Shown here one piece after another: positions 3,303 to 13,687 of a stretch of DNA of 13,687 nucleotides. The notes under the pieces are model-generated. The model worked only from the letters and a program-made list of their open reading frames with translations. It ran no database searches and was not told the DNA's origin. The DNA comes from a virus (lineage: Duplodnaviria; Heunggongvirae; Uroviricota; Caudoviricetes). Each line of letters starts with the position of its first letter. Within the stretch, counting starts at the first letter, position 1. The DNA lies in the IMG/VR virus record IMGVR_UViG_2526164652_000005; one strand, given 5' to 3'. The position numbers were made by a program, and so were the translations under genes.

Positions 3303-3521
3303 TCAAAGAGAGAGCGCCACCTGTCCTGATTTCATTGGATGCGGCTGAACCGGATTTGACTCTTTTGGCGTTGCAATCGAACGAACAAAAGTTTCATGGG
3401 TAACAAAAGTATGGCTGCAGTTAATGTTCTGGCACTGGTTGTAACGCTCTTTGGTCAATGAAGATACCTGAAAACTGCTGCGAGTATGGGCGGCACTTCC
3501 ACACAGTGGGCAAATCATCAT
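3303..3521 (-). CDS. ogr: Ogr/Delta-family zinc-finger late-gene transcriptional activator (72 aa)
   Basis: CPLCG...CQNINC zinc-finger motif and overall similarity to P2 Ogr. GGGAGA SD sits 9 nt upstream of the ATG at 3521; the track ORF starts at an upstream GTG (3554), which I judge less likely. Confidence 0.8.
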   Translation of the reverse strand: MMICPLCGSAAHTRSSFQVSSLTKERYNQCQNINCSHTFVTHETFVRSIATPKESNPVQPHPMKSGQVALSL

Positions 3522-3611
3522 TTTTCGAGTTCTCCCAATTTTTGCTAAATTCACAATAATGATACCGAATTATTCCATTTTGCAAACTTAAAAGTTCTCC
3601 ATTGCGAAGAA

Positions 3612-4712
3612 TCATTCCATTTCGAAATCATCAATCCTCACTTCAAGCTCCAGACTGGTCGTAAAACCATTATCCGGGCTTACGGTATGCGTCAGAGTCG
3701 TAATGGTCCATTCCGCATCATCTATCGGCTGTTTAAAGCCACTGACTTTCACTGGCATTTCCGTGTAGAGATCTGCCCGCCCTTCCGCCAGTTGTAACGA
3801 GAATGACGCAACGCCGCGTTGCAGGCGTTCCCACTGCATTTTCGCCGCTCGTTCGGTGTTGCTCCGGTTGGCATAAGTGCGATTAAGTACCAGCACGTTT
3901 TCATCCGTACCCACCAGGTAATCGCCCTGCTTCGCTTCCGGCTCTTTCTTCTGCTTCTTAGTCCTGCGCTTACGCTTCACCGTGGTGCTTTCTTTCTTCG
4001 CGGGTTCGCGGGTATGCAACCAGCTGGCAATTACGCCCGTGTAGGCTCCGCGATCTGCCAGGGTAAAGCGGTGACTGTCGCCGTCCTTACGTGTGATAGT
4101 GATAACCGGTAGTGGTTTACCGCTGGCGCTTTTACCCTGTCCCTGCCGGATGAATACCAGATTGCCATTTTTCACCGACGCAATAGCACCGTACTGGCGC
4201 GCCAGCCGCATCAGAAAACTGCCGTCACTCTCATTGGTCTGGTCTATATGCTCCACGGGTTTATCCGACAGGTCTTCACCCAATGCCATCTTCAGTTTGT
4301 GCCGCGCAGATATTTCCTTCACGACTTCCCCAACGGTGGTCTTGTGCCACGATTTTTCACGGCGGGTATTCAGCGTTTCACGAAAATCAGCACTTCGCGC
4401 CCGGATAGTCAGGCGGTCCGGTGCGCCAGTGTGTTCAATCTCGTCCACCGTGAATGCCCCTTTCGGGAAAAGCGGCTGCCCCTTCCACCCCAGCGCCAGC
4501 GTAATGACCGCACCACGGCGCGGCAGCACGATTTTTCCGTCGGCGTCGTCCAGCTCCAGATCAAGCTGGTCCGCTTCAAATCCCCGATTGTCCGTCAGCG
4601 TCAGACTCATCAGGCGGTTATCCAGCACAGTAGTGATATCCCTGCCCTCAATACTGATGCTGAATGCAGGAGTTTTGTTGCCTTTGTTAAGCAGTTCAGA
4701 GCTGAAATTCAC
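3612..4712 (-). CDS. D: P2 gpD-family tail protein (366 aa); GTG start overlapping the U stop (GTGA)
   Basis: Similarity to P2 gpD; conserved position between U and ogr; translational coupling to U. Confidence 0.85.
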   Translation of the reverse strand: MNFSSELLNKGNKTPAFSISIEGRDITTVLDNRLMSLTLTDNRGFEADQLDLELDDADGKIVLPRRGAVITLALGWKGQPLFPKGAFTVDEIEHTGAPDRLTIRARSADFRETLNTRREKSWHKTTVGEVVKEISARHKLKMALGEDLSDKPVEHIDQTNESDGSFLMRLARQYGAIASVKNGNLVFIRQGQGKSASGKPLPVITITRKDGDSHRFTLADRGAYTGVIASWLHTREPAKKESTTVKRKRRTKKQKKEPEAKQGDYLVGTDENVLVLNRTYANRSNTERAAKMQWERLQRGVASFSLQLAEGRADLYTEMPVKVSGFKQPIDDAEWTITTLTHTVSPDNGFTTSLELEVRIDDFEME

Positions 4713-5194
4713 GACAGCAGCCCTCCCACCGTTTTACTGATATCGCTTAATGCAGATGTTGCCGTGTCCTGCAGATTATTCAGCTGCGCACTGAGATCAC
4801 CGAACATATCGGACAGGGATTCATCCACCCGTTTGAGCGACAGGGTGAACTCAATCCGGCGCGGCATACCGTCGCGGAAAAACTCCGTTTTAGTCTGATT
4901 CAGTCCCTCAATCACATACATGCCGTAAATCGTGCCGCTGCCTTCAATCAGGGGCCATGCTTTCCCCTGTTCTGCCATCTGCTCAAGTGCCAGCAACGAC
5001 AGCCTGCCGCCTGTTATCTCCGGCATAAGAACACCGGAAAGCGTCAGCATGTCGTTGTCCGGTCCCAGAAACTGCGTGGACGGACGACGATTTACCCGGC
5101 TGTTAGCCGCATGTCGCCAGCTGCGTTGATACTGCAGTTCCTGATACGGCACGGTGCGCAGCATAAACACGTACAATCCCAGCACCATCATCAT
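4709..5194 (-). CDS. U: P2 gpU-family tail protein (161 aa)
   Basis: Similarity to P2 gpU (MMVLGL..., QRSWRH motif); ATGA start/stop overlap with the end of T. Confidence 0.85.
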   Translation of the reverse strand: MMMVLGLYVFMLRTVPYQELQYQRSWRHAANSRVNRRPSTQFLGPDNDMLTLSGVLMPEITGGRLSLLALEQMAEQGKAWPLIEGSGTIYGMYVIEGLNQTKTEFFRDGMPRRIEFTLSLKRVDESLSDMFGDLSAQLNNLQDTATSALSDISKTVGGLLS

Positions 5195-8100
5195 GCGTCG
5201 TATCCCCCCTGATCGCTGTAGTTACTCCTGGCTTTTGCCTTCAACCTGCGTTCACGTTCATCAAGCTGGCGGGCCACCTCCCGCGCAATATCCTGCGCAC
5301 TTTGTCCTGGCTGTGTCTGGATGATGATCTGCGTCGGTGCTTCAATCCGGTAAATGGGCGGCACAGTAGCTGCACGACTCACCATCGCTTCACCGCCTTT
5401 CGCGGGAAGCGCCAAAGGATGCAACGGTGGAAGCTCTGCTGGCGCGGCAGCAACGCCCATCATTCCGGCGACAACGGCAGCCAGTGCAGCTGTATTTCTC
5501 CGGCTGGTCACGTTTGCCGGGCCGTTAACAATTTCCGGCCCGTTTTCACCGACGATGCCAAACTGCCCACGCGGGATATAGCCGCCGCTGTCATACATAC
5601 CCGCAAAGCCATATCCCCATGACGGAAAATCACCCGATGGCATCATCACTTTACCGTCTGCATTCACCGTCGCAGGTTGCTGACTCGTCACGCTTTCCGG
5701 TAGTTTTGCCTTTGCGGCCTCTTTACTGACAATGCCGAGTTTCTCCAGCAACCAGGAAACGCCGGATTTCAGGGAGTCCAGCGGATGCATGACCATATTC
5801 AGCCCTTCCGCCAGTGCCTCCCCGAATCGCCGCCCCATTGCCGCTGCACTCTGCAGTTCGGCAGAGGTCGACTTAACGGGCGTCAGCAGATCAGTAAACC
5901 AGCCCCACAGCGCCTGTACTTTGTCGCCAATCCACTGAAACACGGGCTTAAGCGGTTCGAATGCAGCACTGATGGGACCTGCCGCCGCTTTGAATCCTTC
6001 CACCACGCCACCGAGAAATGCGGTGATGGGTTGCCAGTATTTCCAGACAACCAGCGCCACGCCCGCCAGTGCAGTAACCACAAGACCTATCGGACTGAGC
6101 AGAGCACCTAACAGACCAGATACGGCATACAGGGCAACGCGCAGCATCGCCAGCGGACCGGATGCCAGCACACGCAGCACCGCGCCTGCGGCAGCCAGTC
6201 CACCGCGTAGTGCTGCCAGTGGATTCATAAACATCACAGCAACCGCACGTAACCCGGATAATCCAGACCGCAAAAGTGCAACCGGCGCACCTGCTACCGT
6301 TTTCAGGACATTTCCCGTCAGTGATGCCGTGCGGCGCAAAGACGACAACGGCGCAGTAAGTAAACCTGCGGCGTTGCCCGATGAAGCAAGCCCGCGTCGC
6401 AGCAGTGCCTGTGGTGCGCCAGCCAGGACAACGCACTGCTGGTTCGAGTTACTGCTGCCGTAACGGAAGGTAACATTTTGATACCCAGCACAGAGAATCC
6501 CAGACGGATCACTGCCAGCGGCCCCAGCACTGCAGCCAGCGCCACCGCTAAGGTGCCGAGGCCCACGGTAACGGCAGCCACCACAGCGGCTACTTTCATC
6601 AGTGTGCCTGTCAGTTCCGGGTTAGCTTCCACCCAGCGACGCAACGCCCCTGTGACGCTTTTCACCGTGAACAGAATATCCATCAGCGGCTGGCGCAGCG
6701 TTTCGCCCAGGCTGCTGAAGGTGTTCTGCGCTCCGGTTTTGACCAGCAACCACTGAGCAGAAAGTGAGTCCTTGTTGATGTCGGATTCTTTCTGCATGGA
6801 ACCGAGCGCATCATTGCCCGTTGTCAGTTTTAGCTGGCGCTGCAGTTCCGGAAGGTTGTTTGCCAGTTTCGCTGCGTCATCGCCAAACTCTTTACCAAAC
6901 AACATGGTCATGGCAGACAGGCGCTTATCCTGCGGCAGTGCGTTCACCTTCTCCAGCACGCGCTGGATGGTTCCCATCGCATCCTTCGTCATCTGCTTTT
7001 CAATCACTTCAGGATTGAGTTTCAGCAGATTCATCCCTTCAAAGAAACTCTTGCTCTGCATGGTGGCAATGGACAATTCACGCACCATCGCGTTTGCTGC
7101 ACTGGCTGCAACCTCTGGCGCAGCGCCCAGTGTCAGGAAGGTGGAACCCAGCGCCGCCGCTTTACGATAATCCAGACGATCAGCCACACCGCCCAGGCGT
7201 TGCATGACATCAATGATGTCTACCCCTTTCGACATGGCGTTATCATCCAGATAGTTCAGCGCATCACCGAGCTGTTCAATATTGCGGGTAGGGATTTTGT
7301 AGAGCTGGGCGATTTTCCCCAGACTTTCTGACAGTTCATCCGCTGGCAGCTCAAAGGCTGTTGCCGCCTTTGCTGCCGTACTGGCGAAGGCCAGCAGGTC
7401 ACGTTTCTGGTCCTCCCAGCTGTCGTCAGGGTTTGCAACGTTCATACGCGCACCACCTTCAACCAGTGCAGCGAAGTCCACCGCACCGTTTTCCATCGGC
7501 AACTGTTCGCTGGCAGCTTTGATGGCATCCTGCATTTCATAAAAACGTGCAGTGCGGTTGCCATTATCGTCACGCAGACCATTGACCTGCTTTGTCACAC
7601 CTTTCATGGCATCTTCCATGCTGGTATAGCTTTTTACTGCCGCCATCACTGGCGTCCCCATTGCCAGCCCTGCCGCCGTGGTGGTGGCTCCGGCTCCTGC
7701 GATGCGATCGCGCACCTCCAGCGAACGGGCATAACTGGCACGCGCTGCATTCATCCTGCGCTGAGCTTCCCCCAGTCGCTTCAGCCGCGCCTCCTGTTTC
7801 GACAGTTCCTGGTTATAACGTGATGTTTCACGGGCTAAACGGGCAGTTGCTCCCGCATCATCTTTCGCAGAAATTCCCGCCCGGTACAGTTCTGCACGCA
7901 CAAGCGCCGTTTGCTTCTGCAAATATTTTTGTTGTTCTTCCAGGCGTTGGACTGCCAGCGTTTGCCGACCTAAAGCCACAAGGTGCCGTTGTGATGGTTG
8001 TTCCATCGCTTCCAGCTCAGAACTAAGCAAATTTGCCTTCTGTCTGGCATAGTTCAGCCTGTCGCCTAACTTTTTGTTATCGGCCTGCAGCTTGCGAAAT

Positions 8101-8264
8101 TTTTCCAGGCTGTTACCCGCCTGATTGAGTTGCTTTAATGCGTCACGGGAGTTTCTGATTGCGCCAGCCAGCTCTTTCGAACTGGCCTGTGCAGCACGGA
8201 ATGGGCGGGTGAGTTTGTCAACCGCATTAAGAATGACCTGCAGGCGCAGGTTATTATCACTCAT
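5191..8264 (-). pseudogene. T: Tail tape-measure protein gpT, reading frame disrupted: N-terminal ORF 6318-8264 and C-terminal ORF 5191-6348 in a different frame
   Basis: N-terminal ORF begins MSDNNLRLQ..., coiled-coil rich, P2 gpT-like. Its last ~35 codons are low-complexity out-of-frame-looking sequence. The other frame carries proline-terminated 21-22 aa repeats that continue to the U overlap and is open upstream to a stop at 6622-6624. Together these imply a -1 register change around 6380-6500. Confidence 0.7.
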
Positions 8265-8693
8265 CGTTAGCCCCGCTTCTCTGAATCGCTTTATACCGCC
8301 ATTCCAGCACTTCGGTCAGCGGCATAACGTCAGTAACGGATGGCGGCCAGTGAAAGATGGTGGCGATATCAGCCACCAGATCGTCAACCGTCAGGCTGTC
8401 GGTAAACCGGCAAGCACCGACTTCTTCAACAAAAAAGTGACAACCTCAACCGACATAGCGGTGAGATCTGCCGAGTCCATCTCTGCAATTTCTTGTGCGG
8501 TCAGTGCCGGACTGGAAATGCAGGGGATCACGGTCATCATCGCGTTCACATCCATATCCATAATGGCCTGCAGGCGTATACCGCGCAGCGCACCGGACTG
8601 CGGTTTACGCAGCACAATTTCGGTAATTTCTGTTTTACCGCGCATGATGGGGGTATCCAGTTGAATGGTCTTTTCAGTCTGCTTATCGCTCAT
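8257..8693 (-). CDS. E': E+E' fusion product via programmed -1 ribosomal frameshift (about 145 aa)
   Basis: The -1 frame is open from the slippery site to a TGA at 8257-8259, ending ...RSGANDE and overlapping the T start codon. Geometry matches the P2 E/E' arrangement (analogous to lambda G/GT). Confidence 0.55.
8391..8693 (-). CDS. E: P2 gpE-family tail assembly chaperone (100 aa)
   Basis: Position immediately upstream of T and similarity to P2 gpE; contains the slippery heptamer near its 3' end. Confidence 0.8.
   Translation of the reverse strand: MSDKQTEKTIQLDTPIMRGKTEITEIVLRKPQSGALRGIRLQAIMDMDVNAMMTVIPCISSPALTAQEIAEMDSADLTAMSVEVVTFLLKKSVLAGLPTA
8430..8436 (-). other. Slippery heptamer T_TTT_TTG for the E/E' -1 frameshift
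   Basis: Minus-strand codons ACT TTT TTG in the E frame (plus-strand caaaaaa at 8430-8436). Confidence 0.6.
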
Positions 8694-8747
8694 TTTATTG
8701 TCCTGTAAATTGGGTTCTGGCGCGGTATCCCGCGCCGTTCAGATACA

Positions 8748-9263
8748 TCAGAGGCCGAGGGCGTTGCGGTGCGCTTCCATCAGGTCCACACCGTCCACAA
8801 TTTCCACCATGTTGATAAGGTCCACTTCATAGAGCACCTCACCATTGATGGTCAGCTTCGCGTAGCTGTTGGTACTGGTCACTTTGGTGGTGTTGCTTTC
8901 GCCCGTCTTCCACTCGCCGGAATCCACTTCTTTGTGACGTCCTCGCACCACAAGCTCCACAGCCTGCACTTCCCCGGTATCGTCACGCTGGATAGAGCCA
9001 GTAAAGCGCAGCTGGATGCCATCCACAGTGGCTTTGCCCATCTGCTTAAACAGCAGCAGTTCAGTACCACCAATGGAAAATTCTGTGTCCAGAGCACTGT
9101 CATCAAGCCCCAGATCCACATCCACCGCCCCCGGCATTCCGCCGCCGCGATACTTCTCATATTTGCGGGTGAATTTCGGCAGCGTCAGCGACTCAACGAT
9201 CCCCTGCCAGTTGTTCCCGTCGTTAAACAGGTTCAGGTGTTTTAATTTGCGTGGTAAAGCCAT
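8748..9263 (-). CDS. FII: P2 gpFII-family major tail tube protein (171 aa)
   Basis: MALPRKLKHLNLFNDGNN... matches the P2 FII N-terminus; located between FI and E. Confidence 0.88.
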   Translation of the reverse strand: MALPRKLKHLNLFNDGNNWQGIVESLTLPKFTRKYEKYRGGGMPGAVDVDLGLDDSALDTEFSIGGTELLLFKQMGKATVDGIQLRFTGSIQRDDTGEVQAVELVVRGRHKEVDSGEWKTGESNTTKVTSTNSYAKLTINGEVLYEVDLINMVEIVDGVDLMEAHRNALGL

Positions 9264-9272
9264 GTTGTCCCC

Positions 9273-10445
9273 TTACGCGCTGACCTGGCTGGCGAAATTC
9301 ACCAGGTACTGATCGGTGATGCGCTGACGCAGCATCAGGTTTTCAAGTGGCGGCACTGGCGTGTAGTCGTAGTCGATAGTGAGTTTCCCGGCTTTCAGAG
9401 TGTCTTTGTCGTTCACCGACTCGTCCAGCCAGCAATCACCACCAATGAGATACCCCTGACTGACCAGGCTGCGCATTTTGGCGCGGATACCTTCGATAAT
9501 GTCGCGGGCCAGCGACGGATTCAGCGGTTTGTCCACTGCCCACATGTGCGCTTCTGCCATCGTGTCCATCAGTACCTGCGCCGTGCGGGTGTAGTTTTCG
9601 AAGGCAAAGAGCGGGTCATCGCTCAGACAGCGGGAACCCCAGAAGCGGAAACCGTCTTTGCGGATAAGCGTGGTAACGTCGTTCTGGTTAAGCAGACCTG
9701 CATCGGTTGCCGGGTCCTGCAGATCCCAGAACACATCAGCAGAAATTCCGGTGACACCGTTCACGCCCACGTTGGACAGGCTTTTGTGCCATCCGGTCTG
9801 CTCATCAATTTTGGCGCGCAGACCGAGCGCACGGGCGGTGGCATATGCCGTTGCTTCGGCATTCAGCACCGTGTCCCAGCCCGTAAAGTCAGGCCAGATC
9901 AGCATCCCTTCGCGCTGGCTGAAGTTTTCACGGTAAGTGATCGCCTCCTGTACCGTCTTGCAGCCATACGCTGACAGGTAAGCAAACCCACGCAGGCTTT
10001 GCGCCACGCTCAGCAACTCAGTCGCAACGGCTTTGTTATCGTGGCCTGGCACGCCGAGAATGCGCGGTTTAACGCCGAGCTGTGACTGGGCAGATAACAG
10101 GGCTTTCATACCTGTTTTTTTACCTTCAGCAGTCACTGCGCCGATGATATTGGTCGTGGTTTCGTCTTCCGTTTCACCCTGCGGCACACGCACAACAACG
10201 GTCACGGGTTTTGCCTGGTCAGCGATGGCATCCAGCGAACGGGCCAGAGTACCGGACTCACCCGCTTTACCGCTGGCAGTCAGCACATCAGTGATCAGCA
10301 CGGGTTTATTAAGAGGAAACATTTTTGCATCGGCATCATCGCCCGTGCAGACCATACCCACAATGGCGGTGCTCACCGTGGTAATGGATCGGGTGCCTTC
10401 GTTGACTTCAACAACGCGCACCCCGTGGTGGTAATCCTGAGCCAT
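9273..10445 (-). CDS. FI: P2 gpFI-family contractile tail sheath protein (390 aa)
   Basis: Strong similarity to P2 FI along its length (DYHHGV..., [13 protein letters not shown]..., [14 protein letters not shown]...). AGGAGG SD lies 9 nt upstream of the ATG. Confidence 0.9.
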
Positions 10446-10521
10446 AGTGGCGAACCTCCTGATTGGATTAGGCTTCGCCCTATGTTGAAGTGATTGTGCC
10501 TGACAAACAGCTAAGCGCAGT

Positions 10522-10539
10522 TGTACCGTTATTCATACA
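10522..10539 (-). promoter_or_regulatory. Candidate Ogr-dependent late promoter element (TGT-N12-ACA dyad) upstream of FI
   Basis: tgtaccgttattcataca has the TGT-N12-ACA dyad characteristic of P2/P4 late promoters and lies about 85 bp upstream of the FI start. Confidence 0.4.
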
Positions 10540-10587
10540 AAATGACGGTATTTGTCTGCTTGCAGGGATAATCAACATAATGCTGAT

Positions 10588-11160
10588 TCAGGGGGATTCA
10601 TTGCTCTTATTTGCCGGAAATTTTCTATAAATTGTGGAAACACCTACATCAAAAATCAGTGCAATACGCTGTCTTGATTCTCCGGCCTCGAGTAAACGTC
10701 CAATCTGTGCCCACTGTTCGGTGATCAACTTAGGACGGCGTCCACCTACTCTGCCTTTGGCGCGAGCTGCAGCCAGCCCCGCCTTGGTACGTTCAACTAT
10801 CAGTTCGCGCTCCATTTCAGCCAGGGCCCCCATGACATGAAAAAAGAAACGGCCCATTGGGGTACTGGTATCAATACTGTCAGTCAGGCTTCGGAAATTC
10901 ACGCCACGCTGGCGCAGCTCTTCTATCAGCGTAACGAGATGCCGCATACTGCGCCCCAACCTGTCCAGCTTCCAGACAACCAGAGTGTCACCTGCCGATA
11001 ATGTCCTGAGCAGTTTTTTCAGTCCCGGTCTGTCGGACTTAGTGCCACTGATTTTGTCCTCAAAAATCCGCTCACATCCCGCGCAGTTCAGTGCATTACG
11101 TTGCAAATCGGTGTTCTGGTCATTTGTTGACACGCGTACATAGCCAATAAGCATGATCAA
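10588..11160 (-). CDS. Serine-recombinase DNA invertase, Hin/Gin/Pin/Cin family (190 aa)
   Basis: Very high similarity to Hin/Pin: catalytic-serine motif GYVRVSTNDQ, conserved core, C-terminal helix-turn-helix. True start may be the second in-frame ATG. Confidence 0.9.
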   Translation of the reverse strand: MIMLIGYVRVSTNDQNTDLQRNALNCAGCERIFEDKISGTKSDRPGLKKLLRTLSAGDTLVVWKLDRLGRSMRHLVTLIEELRQRGVNFRSLTDSIDTSTPMGRFFFHVMGALAEMERELIVERTKAGLAAARAKGRVGGRRPKLITEQWAQIGRLLEAGESRQRIALIFDVGVSTIYRKFPANKSNESP

Positions 11161-11172
11161 TCCCCTGAATAA

Positions 11173-11472
11173 AAACCGGGGATGATGCCAGTTAGCCGTT
11201 ATCTCTGCATTTTCATAAACGTTGGTTTGGGAGAAGCGGCTAAAAGAAATGTAGGGACAGGGGCGAATCAGATACCTGATATGGGTAGTTTTATGCTTTC
11301 TGCTTCAGTTCCTGGATATCAAAAATTGCCATCCGGTTTAATTATTCAATGGGGGCCAATTGATGTTCCGCTGACGTCTCAGGACACAGTAACCTATTTT
11401 CCGATTGCATTTCCGAATAGATGTCTGCGGGTATTTGCGACTCAGGATTACACTCCCGGCAGTGCAAATGTT
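11173..11472 (+). pseudogene. Truncated variable tail-fibre C-terminal segment (alternative Sv'-type cassette), cut by IS1
   Basis: Reading frame open from 11173, passes through the crossover site and runs into the IS1 left end at 11472/11473; the last 8 codons and stop of the tracked ORF are IS1 sequence. Tail-fibre assignment is by context and a weak remembered resemblance ([14 protein letters not shown]). Confidence 0.4.
11210..11235. other. Candidate Hin-family crossover site (hix/gix/pix-like 26-bp imperfect palindrome)
   Basis: ttttcataaacg-tt-ggtttgggagaa; reverse complement ttctcccaaaccaacgtttatgaaaa resembles hixL TTCTTGAAAACCAAGGTTTTTGATAA. Lies between the invertase gene and the divergent tail-fibre fragment, inside the latter's reading frame. 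Confidence 0.4.
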
Positions 11473-11495
11473 GGTAATGCTGCCAACTTACTGAT
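11473..11495. repeat. IS1 left terminal inverted repeat
   Basis: ggtaatgctgccaacttactgat; matches the reverse complement of the right end with few mismatches. Confidence 0.85.
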
Positions 11496-11527
11496 TTAGT
11501 GTATGATGGTGATTTTAAGGTGCTTGC

Positions 11528-11803
11528 GTGGCTTCCATTTCCATCAGATGTCCTTCCTGCTCCGCTACTGAAGGCGTGGTGCGTAACGGCAAAAGCACTG
11601 CCGGACATCAGCGCTATCTCTGCTCTCATTGCCGTAAAACATGGCAACTACAGTTCACTTACACCGCCTCTCAGCCCGGTACGCACCAGAAAATCATTGA
11701 TATGGCCATGAATGGCGTCGGATGTCGCGCCAGTGCACGCATTATGGGCGTTGGCCTCAACACGGTTTTACGTCACTTAAAAAACTCAGGCCGCAGTCGG
11801 TAA
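11528..11803 (+). CDS. insA: IS1 InsA (91 aa)
   Basis: Matches remembered IS1 InsA ([23 protein letters not shown]...). Confidence 0.95.
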
Positions 11804-12225
11804 CCTCGCGCATACAACCGGGCAGTGATGTGATTGTCTGCGCTGAAATGGACGAACATTGGGGCTACGTCGGTGCTAAATCACGTCAGCGCTGGCTGTT
11901 TTACGCGTATGACAGGATACGGAGGACGGTTGTGGCGCACGTCTTCGGTGAACGCACTCTGGCCACACTGGAGCGTCTTCTGAGCCTGCTGTCGGCCTTT
12001 GAGGTCGTGGTATGGATGACGGATGGCTGGCCGCTGTATGAATCACGCCTGAAGGGAAAGCTGCACGTTATCAGCAAGCGTTACACTCAGCGCATTGAGC
12101 GACATAATCTGAATCTGAGACAACATCTGGCAAGGCTGGGACGGAAGTCACTGTCGTTCTCAAAATCGGTGGAGCTGCATGACAAGGTCATCGGGCATTA
12201 TCTGAACATAAAACACTATCAGTAA
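11722..12225 (+). CDS. insB: IS1 insB' frame; expressed as the InsAB' transposase by -1 frameshift at A6C (11779-11785)
   Basis: Matches remembered IS1 InsB; the ttaaaaaac motif lies in the insA/insB overlap. Confidence 0.9.
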
Positions 12226-12240
12226 GTTGGAGTCATTACC
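12218..12240. repeat. IS1 right terminal inverted repeat
   Basis: atcagtaagttggagtcattacc. Confidence 0.85.
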
Positions 12241-12242
12241 GT

Positions 12243-12551
12243 GTTCGTGAACTCGGTGATGCTAGTGTTCCTTTTTCGTTCGATGTTCATGCGATGATTT
12301 ATAGTGATGATGCACCATCATTAGAAAATCATCTGCATAAAGTCTTCAACGAAAAACAGGTCAATAAAATTAACTCACGAAAAGAGTTTTTCAACGTAAA
12401 TATTAAAGAAATTAAGTCTGTTATTGAAGATATGAACATCAACGCACAATGGACAATGTTTGCGGAAGCGAAAGAATATAGAGAGTCACTGGCGATTGAG
12501 CAAGAGCGCAAAGCAGCAACTTCCGCCAACGATGAACTGCATGTTGCTTAG
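12243..12551 (+). pseudogene. 3' fragment of a T5orf172-domain (GIY-YIG-like) protein gene, truncated at its 5' side by IS1
   Basis: Frame is open directly from the IS1 right end (...RVRELGDASVPFSFDVHAMIYSDDAPSLENHLHKVFNEKQVNKINSRKEFFNV...); this resembles the C-terminal T5orf172 motif. No start codon of its own until 12294. Confidence 0.5.
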
Positions 12552-12634: not shown

Positions 12635-13687
12635 ATGGCAGTACGAAAACTCACCACAGGAAAATGGCTTTGCGAATGTTACCCCGCCGGACGTAGTGGA
12701 CGTCGTGTGCGTAAACAATTCGCCACCAAAGGCGAAGCTCTGGCTTTTGAGCGTCACACGATGGAAGAAACCGAAGCAAAGCCCTGGCTGGGTGAATCAG
12801 TGGATCGTCGAACACTGAAAGACGTGGTTGAACTATGGTTCAAACTACATGGTAAATCTCTGACAGCTGGGCAGCATGTCTATGACAAATTGCTGTTGAT
12901 GGTTGACGCTCTGGGCAATCCTCTTGCAACCGATCTCACCTCTAAAATGTTTGCCCACTATCGAGATAAACGCCTGACAGGCGAGATCTACTTCAGCGAG
13001 AAATGGAAGAAAGGAGCAAGCCCGGTCACCATTAACCTGGAGCAAAGCTATCTAAGTAGTATTTTTAGCGAACTATCCCGTCTGGGCGAATGGTCGTATC
13101 CGAACCCACTGGAGAACATGCGAAAATTCACCATCGCAGAAAAAGAGATGGCATGGCTTACCCATGAGCAGATTGTTGAATTGCTGGCTGATTGCAAACG
13201 TCAGGACCCAATTCTGGCACTGGTAGTTAAGATATGCTTAAGCACAGGCGCACGCTGGCGTGAAGCCGTAAATCTTACTCGCTCACAGGTGACCAAATAC
13301 CGAATTACCTTTGTCAGAACGAAGGGGAAGAAAAACAGAAGCATCCCTATCAGTAAAGAGCTTTACGAAGAGATCATGGCGCTTGATGGGTTCAATTTCT
13401 TCACAGACTGCTATTTTCAATTTTTATCCGTGATGGAAAAAACGTCTATCGTGCTCCCTCGCGGTCAACTCACACACGTTCTGCGCCATACGTTTGCGGC
13501 GCACTTCATGATGTCGGGTGGAAACATTCTGGCCTTACAAAAAATTCTCGGACACCACGATATAAAAATGACTATGCGTTACGCACATCTGGCACCGGAT
13601 CATCTGGAAACGGCGCTCCGTTTCAATCCTCTGGCAACGCTGCCAAGTGGCGACAAAGTGGCGGCAGCGGTTGGCATTACCCCGTAA
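12635..13687 (+). CDS. int: P2-family tyrosine integrase (350 aa), complete; TAA at the window end
   Basis: Similarity to P2 Int (MAIKKLDDGRYEV... versus MAVRKLTTGKWLCE...); conserved catalytic region LSTGARW, RHTFAAHFM, LGHHDIKMTMRYAHL. Confidence 0.88.
   Translation: MAVRKLTTGKWLCECYPAGRSGRRVRKQFATKGEALAFERHTMEETEAKPWLGESVDRRTLKDVVELWFKLHGKSLTAGQHVYDKLLLMVDALGNPLATDLTSKMFAHYRDKRLTGEIYFSEKWKKGASPVTINLEQSYLSSIFSELSRLGEWSYPNPLENMRKFTIAEKEMAWLTHEQIVELLADCKRQDPILALVVKICLSTGARWREAVNLTRSQVTKYRITFVRTKGKKNRSIPISKELYEEIMALDGFNFFTDCYFQFLSVMEKTSIVLPRGQLTHVLRHTFAAHFMMSGGNILALQKILGHHDIKMTMRYAHLAPDHLETALRFNPLATLPSGDKVAAAVGITP

What the first reader, a model, noticed from the sequence alone, without database searches (positions are those of the whole stretch)
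8257..8693. Conserved E/E' programmed -1 frameshift cassette is intact
A T_TTT_TTG slippery heptamer sits near the 3' end of E (minus strand, plus coordinates 8430-8436). The -1 frame stays open for about 58 codons and stops at a TGA that overlaps the T start (ATGAGTGA). This is the classic tail-chaperone recoding arrangement and suggests the tail assembly module was under selection until recently, despite the loss of the rest of the phage.
Basis: partly seen in the sequence, partly recalled or inferred. Interest (0 to 1): 0.4.

Follow-up and report, generated by a model that had tools for sequence, protein, structure and literature searches.

The report
P2-type tail-chaperone frameshift site, decaying prophage

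Summary
E is 8693..8391 on the minus strand. An in-frame T_TTT_TTG lies at 8436..8430. The -1 frame then runs for 57 sense codons to TGA 8259..8257, which overlaps the tape-measure (T) start inside ATGAGTGA. E matches Pfam PF10109 and the extension matches PF06528. The fused 145-aa product is 47% identical to P2 gpE+E' without gaps. P2 has the same heptamer and the same stop/start overlap. The two-frame layout recurs in 376 phage records. This is the known P2 E/E+E' recoding cassette.

The selection inference is not supported.
- The remnant is 99.5% identical to an intact prophage, so neutral decay would leave the cassette untouched with P about 0.9.
- T, the protein this chaperone serves, is frameshifted by loss of one CTGG unit (648 aa instead of 1025).
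- Substitutions specific to this lineage are 11 nonsynonymous to 2 synonymous. Intact relatives show 64 to 223.
- Both substitutions in E change amino acids. One is R58C, at an arginine that is invariant in every relative examined.
- An IS1-associated deletion removed the baseplate, fibre, head and replication genes.

Verdict: an ordinary, already known feature in a decaying prophage.

The parts
8391..8693 (-). Gene E (zero-frame tail assembly chaperone, 100 aa, stop TGA 8393..8391). Carries the lineage-specific changes R58C (8522) and P74S (8474).
   Evidence: (PF10109 Phage_TAC_7, E 4.9e-17)
8430..8436 (-). Slippery heptamer T_TTT_TTG, in phase with E (ACT TTT TTG = T86 F87 L88). Identical to the annotated P2 shift site.
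8257..8430 (-). E' extension in the -1 frame: GTT 8430..8428 through 57 sense codons to TGA 8259..8257. The last 37 residues match the P2 GpE domain.
   Evidence: (PF06528, E 4e-19)
8257..8264 (-). ATGAGTGA: the E' stop (TGA 8259..8257) overlaps the start of T (ATG 8264..8262).
   Evidence: the same overlap is seen in P2 and its enterobacterial relatives
6318..8264 (-). Tape-measure gene T, N-terminal 648 codons, ending at a premature stop created by a frameshift.
   Evidence: (PF10145)
6410..6425 (-). Site of the 4-bp loss in T: (CTGG)3 in intact relatives is (CTGG)2 here. On the plus strand, GCCA is missing after 6417.
5191..6417 (-). Remainder of T, now out of frame. Intact T is 3078 nt (1025 aa) in relatives.
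8748..9263 (-). FII, the tail tube gene (171 aa), immediately upstream of E.
   Evidence: PF04985, 8.8e-60
9273..10445 (-). FI, the tail sheath gene (390 aa).
10522..10539 (-). TGT-N12-ACA dyad 77-94 nt upstream of the FI start. It resembles the Ogr-dependent P2 late-promoter element, so this is a candidate PF promoter for the FI-FII-E-T-U-D operon.
   Evidence: The assignment rests on my own knowledge of P2 late promoters and was not tested.
4709..5194 (-). U (161 aa).
   Evidence: PF06995
3612..4712 (-). D (366 aa).
   Evidence: PF05954
3303..3521 (-). ogr, the late-gene activator (72 aa). This is the last prophage gene before the host gene ybjL.
   Evidence: PF04606
10588..11160 (-). Hin/Cin-type DNA invertase of the tail-fibre inversion segment.
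   Evidence: PF00239, PF02796
11182..11472 (+). Fragment of an alternative tail-fibre C-terminus (Gp53-like_C), cut off by IS1.
11473..12240 (+). IS1 (768 bp) with no flanking target-site duplication. It marks the deletion that removed most of the prophage.
12294..12551 (+). 3' remnant (85 codons) of a DUF4041/T5orf172 gene that is 558 aa in an intact relative.
12635..13687 (+). P2-type integrase gene. It runs to the end of the window.

Best explanation
This is the E/E+E' tail-assembly-chaperone gene pair of a P2-like (Peduoviridae) prophage integrated between ybjL and rcdA of an E. coli/Shigella-type chromosome.

How it works, by homology with P2 and by analogy with lambda G/GT:
- Most ribosomes translate E (100 aa) and stop at 8393..8391.
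- A minority slip back one base on U_UUU_UUG. tRNA-Phe in the P site and tRNA-Leu in the A site re-pair on UUU_UUU.
- Those ribosomes continue in the -1 frame and make a 145-aa E+E' protein. It ends just inside the start of the tape-measure gene T.
- The two proteins share the N-terminal domain that binds the tape measure. The E' domain recruits the tube protein, and the fixed low ratio is what the frameshift provides.
- No downstream RNA structure is needed or conserved.

In this window the recoding signal and both ORFs are sequence-intact, but the cassette is a passenger in a recently inactivated, neutrally decaying remnant.
- Its client T is frameshifted.
- E carries R58C at an invariant arginine.
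- The baseplate, fibre, head, lysis and replication genes were deleted in association with IS1.
- The intactness reflects youth (about 0.2% lineage-specific divergence), not selection.

Shown here: the anatomy, the homology, the conservation and the decay signatures. Inferred: that frameshifting would occur if the mRNA were made, and the chaperone mechanism.
For: Anatomy and phase.

Homology: E matches PF10109 and E' matches PF06528. The fused product is 47% identical to P2 gpE+E' over 141 aa with no gaps. The P2 record annotates a -1 frameshift at the same TTTTTTG and has the same stop/start overlap.

Conservation: tblastn of the fused product finds 423 phage records, and 376 of them cover at least 80% of it; every near-full-length hit among the 60 rows listed is split into two frames. 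In 18 relatives (15 diverse phages and 3 close E. coli records), E' is always in the -1 frame. Twelve of the 15 diverse phages have in-phase TTTTTTG. The other three have other X_XXY_YYZ heptamers. Of 79 close IMG/VR relatives, 77 have TTTTTTG and 2 have TTTTTTA, and all have both frames open.

No stimulatory structure: downstream folding z-scores range from -2.2 to +1.2 across relatives, with the window at -0.89 for 60 nt and -1.99 for 90 nt. The consensus fold is only -1.6 kcal/mol. Rfam finds nothing. This agrees with PMC3091744, which cites Xu 2004 and Christie 2002.

Decay: 4-bp CTGG loss in T. Private substitutions are 11 N to 2 S, against a baseline of 64 N to 223 S. P(at least 11 of 13 nonsynonymous) at comparable purifying-selection fractions (0.20-0.25; the measured baseline is 0.22) is about 1e-6 to 1e-5, and 0.2-0.33 under neutrality. 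R58 is invariant in 16/16 diverse and 82/82 close relatives. P(cassette untouched under neutral decay) = 0.905. IS1 has no target duplication, and an intact relative shows what is missing.
Against: There is no expression or protein evidence for this locus, so frameshifting here is inferred from homology.

The neutral-decay statistics rest on only 13 coding substitutions. Polarity for the D, U and distal T sites rests on just three outgroups.

The effect of R58C on function is inferred from conservation only.

FI, FII, U, D, ogr, the invertase and a candidate late promoter are still full length, so residual expression cannot be excluded.

The 4-bp loss in T could in principle be an assembly error. 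However, it recurs in L084 (99.95% identical, including the IS1 junction), in L036 and in L059.
Confidence: 0.9

Rival explanations
1. The cassette, with FI, FII, U and D, is retained by selection. Possible reasons would be a domesticated tail or tailocin-like module, or a source of parts that complement or recombine with incoming P2-like phages. This is what the first reader suggested.
For: FI, FII, E/E', U, D, ogr and the invertase keep their full lengths. A late-promoter-like dyad is retained.
Against: T is frameshifted. No baseplate, spike, fibre or lysis genes remain. Private changes are 11 N to 2 S, matching neutrality and not the 0.22 nonsynonymous fraction of intact relatives. E has R58C at an invariant residue. 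Intactness is expected by chance at P = 0.9. None of 5,426 complete E. coli genomes carries the same junction, so the remnant is not widespread.
Confidence: 0.04
2. E' is not made by frameshifting but is translated independently as a 39-aa peptide from GTG 8376. This is how PGAP annotates the homologous 'GpE family phage tail protein' ORFs.
For: RefSeq and GenBank records list a separate 120-nt CDS. Many relatives have Met at that position.
Against: No Shine-Dalgarno-like sequence precedes GTG 8376; the upstream sequence is CGACAGCCTGACGGTTGACGATCTG. In all 18 relatives examined the -1 frame stays open from the heptamer to the E' domain, and length differences in the linker are multiples of 3. 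The heptamer is conserved at the nucleotide level where the proteins are 35-50% identical. For P2 the fused product was shown experimentally and annotated (Christie et al. 2002 as cited in PMC3091744).
Confidence: 0.03
3. The -1 product arises from RNA-polymerase slippage on the T6 run, for example one U fewer in the transcript, and not from ribosomal slippage.
For: The site is a homopolymeric run. Nothing in this analysis separates the two mechanisms.
Against: Three relatives use CCCTTTC, GGGAAAG and TTTTTTC. The first two are classic tandem-tRNA slippage heptamers but poor transcriptional slippage sites. The X_XXY_YYZ phase is kept in every relative examined, which matters only to ribosomes. 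From my own knowledge, runs of 6 give little transcriptional slippage in E. coli.
Confidence: 0.03

Closest known systems
Bacteriophage P2 gpE / gpE+E' (FETUD tail operon; Christie et al. 2002, cited in PMC3091744; GenBank AF063097 annotation)
   Same: Same gene order FI-FII-E/E'-T-U-D-ogr. Same TTTTTTG heptamer in the same phase. Same 57-codon -1 extension. Same overlap of the E' stop with the T start. 47% amino-acid identity without gaps, and the same two Pfam families.
   Different: This belongs to a different sublineage of P2-like prophages, 96-98% identical to Klebsiella and E. coli prophages and not to P2 itself. E is 100 aa here and 91 aa in P2. This copy carries R58C and P74S and sits next to a broken T in a truncated prophage.
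Phage lambda gpG / gpGT tail assembly chaperones (Levin 1993; Xu, Hendrix and Duda 2004, 2013, 2014, as summarised in PMC5009743)
   Same: [quoted passage not shown] The gene lies between the tube gene and the tape-measure gene. The short form binds the tape measure and the extension recruits the tube protein.
   Different: No detectable sequence similarity. Lambda uses G_GGA_AAG and belongs to a non-contractile tail. This is analogy of mechanism and not family membership.
E/E+E' of other sequenced Peduoviridae (PSP3, phiCTX, Burkholderia KL3/KS5/KS14/AP3, Fels-2-like SEN8, Klebsiella prophages)
   Same: Same two-frame arrangement and usually the same TTTTTTG (PMC3091744).
   Different: These are in complete, functional phages with an intact T. 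A few use other heptamers: CCCTTTC, GGGAAAG, TTTTTTC.

Membership tests
P2-type E/E+E' tail assembly chaperone with programmed -1 frameshift | Located between the tail tube gene (FII) and the tape-measure gene (T) | tested here: met
   FII is at 8748-9263, E at 8391-8693 and the T start at 8264, all on the minus strand.
P2-type E/E+E' tail assembly chaperone with programmed -1 frameshift | Zero-frame product homologous to gpE (Pfam PF10109 Phage_TAC_7) | tested here: met
   E 4.9e-17, 62 bits against a cutoff of 25, covering profile positions 1-78 of 79.
P2-type E/E+E' tail assembly chaperone with programmed -1 frameshift | The -1-frame extension is homologous to the E' domain (Pfam PF06528 Phage_P2_GpE) | tested here: met
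   E 4e-19, 68 bits against a cutoff of 23, covering the full 37-position profile. The fused product aligns to P2 gpE+E' without gaps.
P2-type E/E+E' tail assembly chaperone with programmed -1 frameshift | An X_XXY_YYZ slippery heptamer in phase, inside the region where both frames are open | tested here: met
   T_TTT_TTG at 8436..8430 inside a 52-nt overlap. The same site occurs in P2 and in 12 of 15 diverse phages.
P2-type E/E+E' tail assembly chaperone with programmed -1 frameshift | E' lacks its own translation start | tested here: inconclusive
   A GTG at 8376 exists, and PGAP annotates homologues from it. No SD-like sequence precedes it, and the frame is open back to the heptamer in every relative examined.
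P2-type E/E+E' tail assembly chaperone with programmed -1 frameshift | The frameshift product is actually made (about 10% in P2, from my own recollection of Christie 2002) | not testable with these tools
   Needs a reporter assay, ribosome profiling or mass spectrometry.
P2-type E/E+E' tail assembly chaperone with programmed -1 frameshift | Functional partner present: an intact tape measure for the chaperone to act on | tested here: not met
   T is frameshifted by loss of one CTGG unit, giving 648 aa instead of 1025 aa. This concerns function in this genome and not homology.
Lambda G/GT-type chaperones (mechanistic analogue) | Sequence homology to gpG/gpGT | not tested
   No lambda family appeared in the Pfam hits. 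The analogy is taken from the literature (PMC5009743, PMC3091744).
R-type tailocin / domesticated contractile tail module | A complete set of sheath, tube, tape measure, baseplate, spike, fibre and lysis genes | tested here: not met
   Only FI, FII, E/E', a broken T, U and D remain. IS1 replaces the rest.

The most novel reading that the evidence does not exclude
The (CTGG)3 tract in the tape-measure gene may be a recurrent contraction hot spot. It would repeatedly switch off, and perhaps reversibly switch, tail production in this family of P2-like prophages. The same loss of one unit and the same 648-aa truncation are seen in the window lineage and in two relatives that are only 96.7% identical. 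One of those, L036, lies on a 33.8-kb contig that is apparently a full-length prophage. If so, the intact E/E' cassette would stay useful after reversion.
Probability: 0.05. Interest if true: 0.4.

Novelty: already known. Interest (0 to 1): 0.08.

Why it matters
It matters little in itself. The P2 E/E+E' frameshift has been established experimentally since 2002 and is conserved across Peduoviridae.

The useful lessons are about method.
- An open reading frame or intact recoding signal in a prophage remnant that is 99.5% identical to a live phage carries almost no information about selection. Neutral decay leaves it intact about 90% of the time.
- Lineage-polarised N:S counts and a check of neighbouring genes reveal decay that ORF intactness hides. 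Here those signs are 11:2, R58C and a frameshifted T.
- Automated annotation still lists E' as a free-standing 39-aa gene and not as a joined frameshift CDS.

Tried and rejected
- Downstream stimulatory structure. I folded 60 nt and 90 nt downstream in the window and in 15 relatives, ran RNAalifold on 13 sequences, and scanned Rfam. Nothing is conserved. The window's z of -1.99 for 90 nt comes from stems that start 12 nt or more downstream and are not shared by relatives.
- Upstream SD-like stimulator. A (G/A)AGGT motif lies about 7 nt 5' of the heptamer in many relatives. It coincides with conserved (E/K)-V codons and is absent in ENT90, KL3 and others. It is left as an untested possibility.
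- NCBIfam gave no hit for E or E+E'. A PDB sequence search found no solved relative.
- Christie et al. 2002 (PMC135442) is not held in the library. Its content is cited through PMC3091744 and from my own recollection.
- Search for the same IS1 junction in complete E. coli genomes: none of 5,426 has it. Only IMG/VR contig UViG_2526164651_000004 (L084) shares it. The exact source strain was not identified.
- Tailocin or domestication reading: rejected because the parts list is incomplete and the N:S ratio is neutral.
- I did not use the large protein-database, structure-prediction or metagenome tools, because the identity was already unambiguous.

Full report
**1. The observation**

On the minus strand, E is the 100-codon ORF 8693..8391. 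The run TTTTTTG occupies 8436..8430. Counting from the ATG, it is phased ACT(86) TTT(87) TTG(88), which is T_TTT_TTG in X_XXY_YYZ register.

Translating from 8436 in the -1 frame gives FFVEEVGACRFTDSLTVDDLVADIATIFHWPPSVTDVMPLTEVLEWRYKAIQRSGANDE*. That is 57 sense codons after the slip (GTT 8430..8428 onward) and a TGA at 8259..8257. The tape-measure ORF begins at ATG 8264..8262, so the two overlap as ATGAGTGA. Every coordinate in the finding is right.

The heptamer alone is not remarkable: 4 copies in the window against 4.5 expected. The significance comes from its phase, its position and the homology of both frames.

**2. What it is**

- Pfam assigns E to PF10109 (tail assembly chaperone E/41/14; 4.9e-17).
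- Pfam assigns the -1 extension to PF06528 (Phage P2 GpE; 4e-19).
- The neighbouring ORFs are FI sheath, FII tube, tape measure, gpU, gpD, Ogr and a Hin-type invertase.
- The conceptual 145-aa fusion is 47% identical (70% similar) to P2 gpE+E' over 141 residues without a gap.
- The GenBank record of P2 annotates gpE, a joined gpE+E' CDS and a 'site of -1 translational frameshift' at the same heptamer (GGT TTT TTG). P2 has the same overlap of stop and start, ATGAGTAA.
- Lynch et al. 2010 (PMC3091744) summarise the primary work (Christie 2002; Xu, Hendrix and Duda 2004). The -1 shift at TTTTTTG yields 91-aa E and 142-aa E+E'. The site is conserved in Burkholderia P2-like phages, and no downstream hairpin is present.

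**3. Conservation in relatives**

tblastn of the fused protein against 50,697 phage records finds 423 records. Of these, 376 cover at least 80% of it, and every near-full-length hit among the 60 listed rows is split into two frames.

I fetched P2 plus 14 taxonomically spread relatives (Salmonella, Klebsiella, Erwinia, Yersinia, Burkholderia, Ralstonia, Pseudomonas, Mannheimia, Vibrio, Acidovorax and a faecal contig). I analysed them together with three close E. coli records.
- E' is in the -1 frame in all 18.
- Twelve of the 15 diverse phages have in-phase TTTTTTG, although their E proteins are only 34-52% identical to the window's in most cases.
- The remaining three have other canonical heptamers: CCCTTTC, GGGAAAG and TTTTTTC.
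- The extension after the heptamer is 51-70 codons.

Among 79 close IMG/VR relatives, 77 have TTTTTTG and 2 have TTTTTTA, and both frames are open in all.

**4. Stimulatory elements**

- Folding the 60 nt downstream gives z-scores from -2.2 to +1.2 across 16 sequences. The window is at -0.89.
- The tool fold of 90 nt gives z = -1.99. Its stems begin 12 nt or more from the site and are not shared by relatives.
- RNAalifold on 13 sequences finds only a 5-pair helix at -1.6 kcal/mol.
- Rfam finds nothing.

So the heptamer appears to act alone, as reported for P2. An SD-like (G/A)AGGT about 7 nt upstream is frequent but is confounded with conserved (E/K)-V codons.

**5. Context: a truncated prophage**

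- The left 3.3 kb is ybjC-grxA-ybjM-ybjL, about 99.3% identical to E. coli.
- 3337-11283 matches P2-like prophages of Klebsiella and E. coli at 96-99.5%.
- At 11473-12240 lies a 768-bp IS1 with no flanking target duplication.
- To its right are the last 85 codons of a DUF4041/T5orf172 gene and the integrase gene.
- In an intact relative the order is ...cI-DUF4041(558 aa)-int-attL-rcdA. An IS1-associated deletion has therefore removed everything from the tail-fibre genes through the head, lysis, replication and immunity genes.
- The same junction occurs in IMG/VR contig UViG_2526164651_000004 (L084), which is 99.95% identical. It occurs in none of 5,426 complete E. coli genomes.

**6. Is the tail module intact and selected?**

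No, on four counts.

(a) T is broken. Against both an intact 97% relative and an intact 99.5% relative, T lacks 4 bp after plus-strand 6417. The alignment shows (CTGG)3 reduced to (CTGG)2. This ends T at 648 aa instead of 1025 aa.

(b) The substitution pattern is neutral.
- I polarised the 20 differences from the nearest intact relative using up to 82 other relatives. Fifteen are private to the window lineage: 2 intergenic, 11 nonsynonymous and 2 synonymous.
- Two intact prophages compared over the same genes differ by 64 nonsynonymous and 223 synonymous changes, a fraction of 0.22.
- The neutral expectation for these genes is 0.71-0.76.
- Seeing at least 11 of 13 nonsynonymous has probability about 1e-6 to 1e-5 at comparable purifying-selection fractions (0.20-0.25), and 0.2-0.33 under neutrality.
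- Twelve of the 15 private changes are GC to AT, the direction of raw mutation.

(c) E itself is hit. Its only two differences from the nearest relative are both nonsynonymous.
- R58C (8522): the Arg lies in the (L/V)PR(I/M)(T/S) motif and is invariant in 16 of 16 diverse relatives and 82 of 82 close ones.
- P74S (8474): Pro is present in 11 of 16 diverse relatives.

(d) Intactness is expected by chance.
- Only 5.4% of the possible single substitutions in the 437-bp cassette would create or remove a stop or start codon or alter the heptamer.
- At the lineage's observed rate (15 substitutions and 1 indel in 7,947 bp), the cassette stays 'intact' with P = 0.905 without any selection.

**7. Mechanism**

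Shown here: the sequence anatomy, homology and conservation of a -1 recoding site.

Taken from established work on P2 and lambda (PMC3091744, PMC5009743, and my own recollection of Christie 2002 for the figure of about 10%):
- Tandem slippage of tRNA-Phe and tRNA-Leu on U_UUU_UUG produces a minor E+E' species alongside the major E.
- Both bind the tape measure through the shared N-terminal domain.
- The E' domain recruits the tube protein.
- Neither protein ends up in the virion.

In this genome the pathway has no substrate, because T is truncated and there is no baseplate. Even if the retained late-promoter-like dyad (10522-10539) and ogr allowed transcription, no tail could be built.

**8. 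Rivals**

- Independent initiation of E' at GTG 8376, as PGAP annotates it. This is disfavoured by the lack of an SD sequence, by the -1 frame being open back to the heptamer in every relative examined, with linker indels in multiples of three, and by the P2 experiments.
- Transcriptional slippage. This is disfavoured because phase is conserved and because two relatives use the non-homopolymeric heptamers CCCTTTC and GGGAAAG.
- Domestication or selection. This is disfavoured by point 6.

**9. Verdict**

The selection inference is unsupported. The feature is already known and ordinary. The only mildly curious by-product is that the same CTGG-unit loss in T recurs in two relatives that are 96.7% identical (L036, L059). 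That hints at a slippage hot spot.

Noticed in passing
window 6410-6425 (minus strand); L036 and L059 around 5330-5345: The tape-measure gene T is frameshifted by contraction of a (CTGG)3 microrepeat to (CTGG)2, giving 648 aa instead of 1025 aa. The identical contraction and truncation occur in two IMG/VR relatives only 96.7% identical to the window. One of them lies on a 33.8-kb contig that is apparently a full-length prophage. This could be a recurrent slippage hot spot or could have spread by recombination.
   Followed up: partly
window 11473-12240, with flanks 11464-11472 and 12241-12250: A 768-bp IS1 with no target-site duplication joins a truncated tail-fibre C-terminus fragment to the last 85 codons of a DUF4041/T5orf172 gene. 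This signature fits an IS1-associated deletion of roughly 25 kb of prophage. The junction is absent from 5,426 complete E. coli genomes and present in IMG/VR UViG_2526164651_000004.
   Followed up: partly
window 12294-12551; L099 2636-4312: Intact relatives carry a 558-aa DUF4041 (T5orf172/MUG113-like) gene between cI and int of this P2-like prophage. It may be accessory or defence-type cargo at the int-proximal end. Only its 3' end survives here.
   Followed up: no
window 3337-11283: Twelve of the 15 substitutions private to this lineage are GC to AT. This is the raw mutational bias expected for unselected DNA.
   Followed up: partly
L035 and L046, position 3323 onward: Two close relatives have TTTTTTA instead of TTTTTTG at the shift site, with both frames still open.
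   Followed up: no
L092 (Klebsiella ST16-OXA48phi5.4), L095 (Mannheimia 587AP1), L096 (Vibrio MAR): Distant homologues keep the -1 arrangement but use different in-phase heptamers: CCCTTTC, GGGAAAG and TTTTTTC. The signal has turned over while the architecture is conserved.
   Followed up: partly
L001 6525-6644; L002 11551-11670; L003 9162-9281; L085-L089, L093: PGAP and many submitters annotate E' as a free-standing 39-aa 'GpE family phage tail protein' CDS and not as a joined -1 frameshift CDS with E. This is a systematic annotation artefact. Pfam PF06528 covers just this piece.
   Followed up: partly
window 10522-10539: A TGT-N12-ACA dyad (TGTATGAATAACGGTACA) lies 77-94 nt upstream of the FI start codon. 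It resembles the Ogr-responsive element of P2 late promoters. ogr (3303-3521) is also retained, with two private substitutions just upstream of it (3537, 3568).
   Followed up: no
L003 2987-4422 (E. coli FDAARGOS_1248): In the closest intact relative, the int gene lies only about 165 bp from ogr of the matching prophage. This suggests two P2-like prophages in tandem at that site.
   Followed up: no
window 10588-11472: A Hin/Cin-type invertase gene is retained next to the stump of the invertible tail-fibre segment (Gp53-like_C fragment, 11182-11472). The invertase has one private nonsynonymous change (R126K).
   Followed up: no
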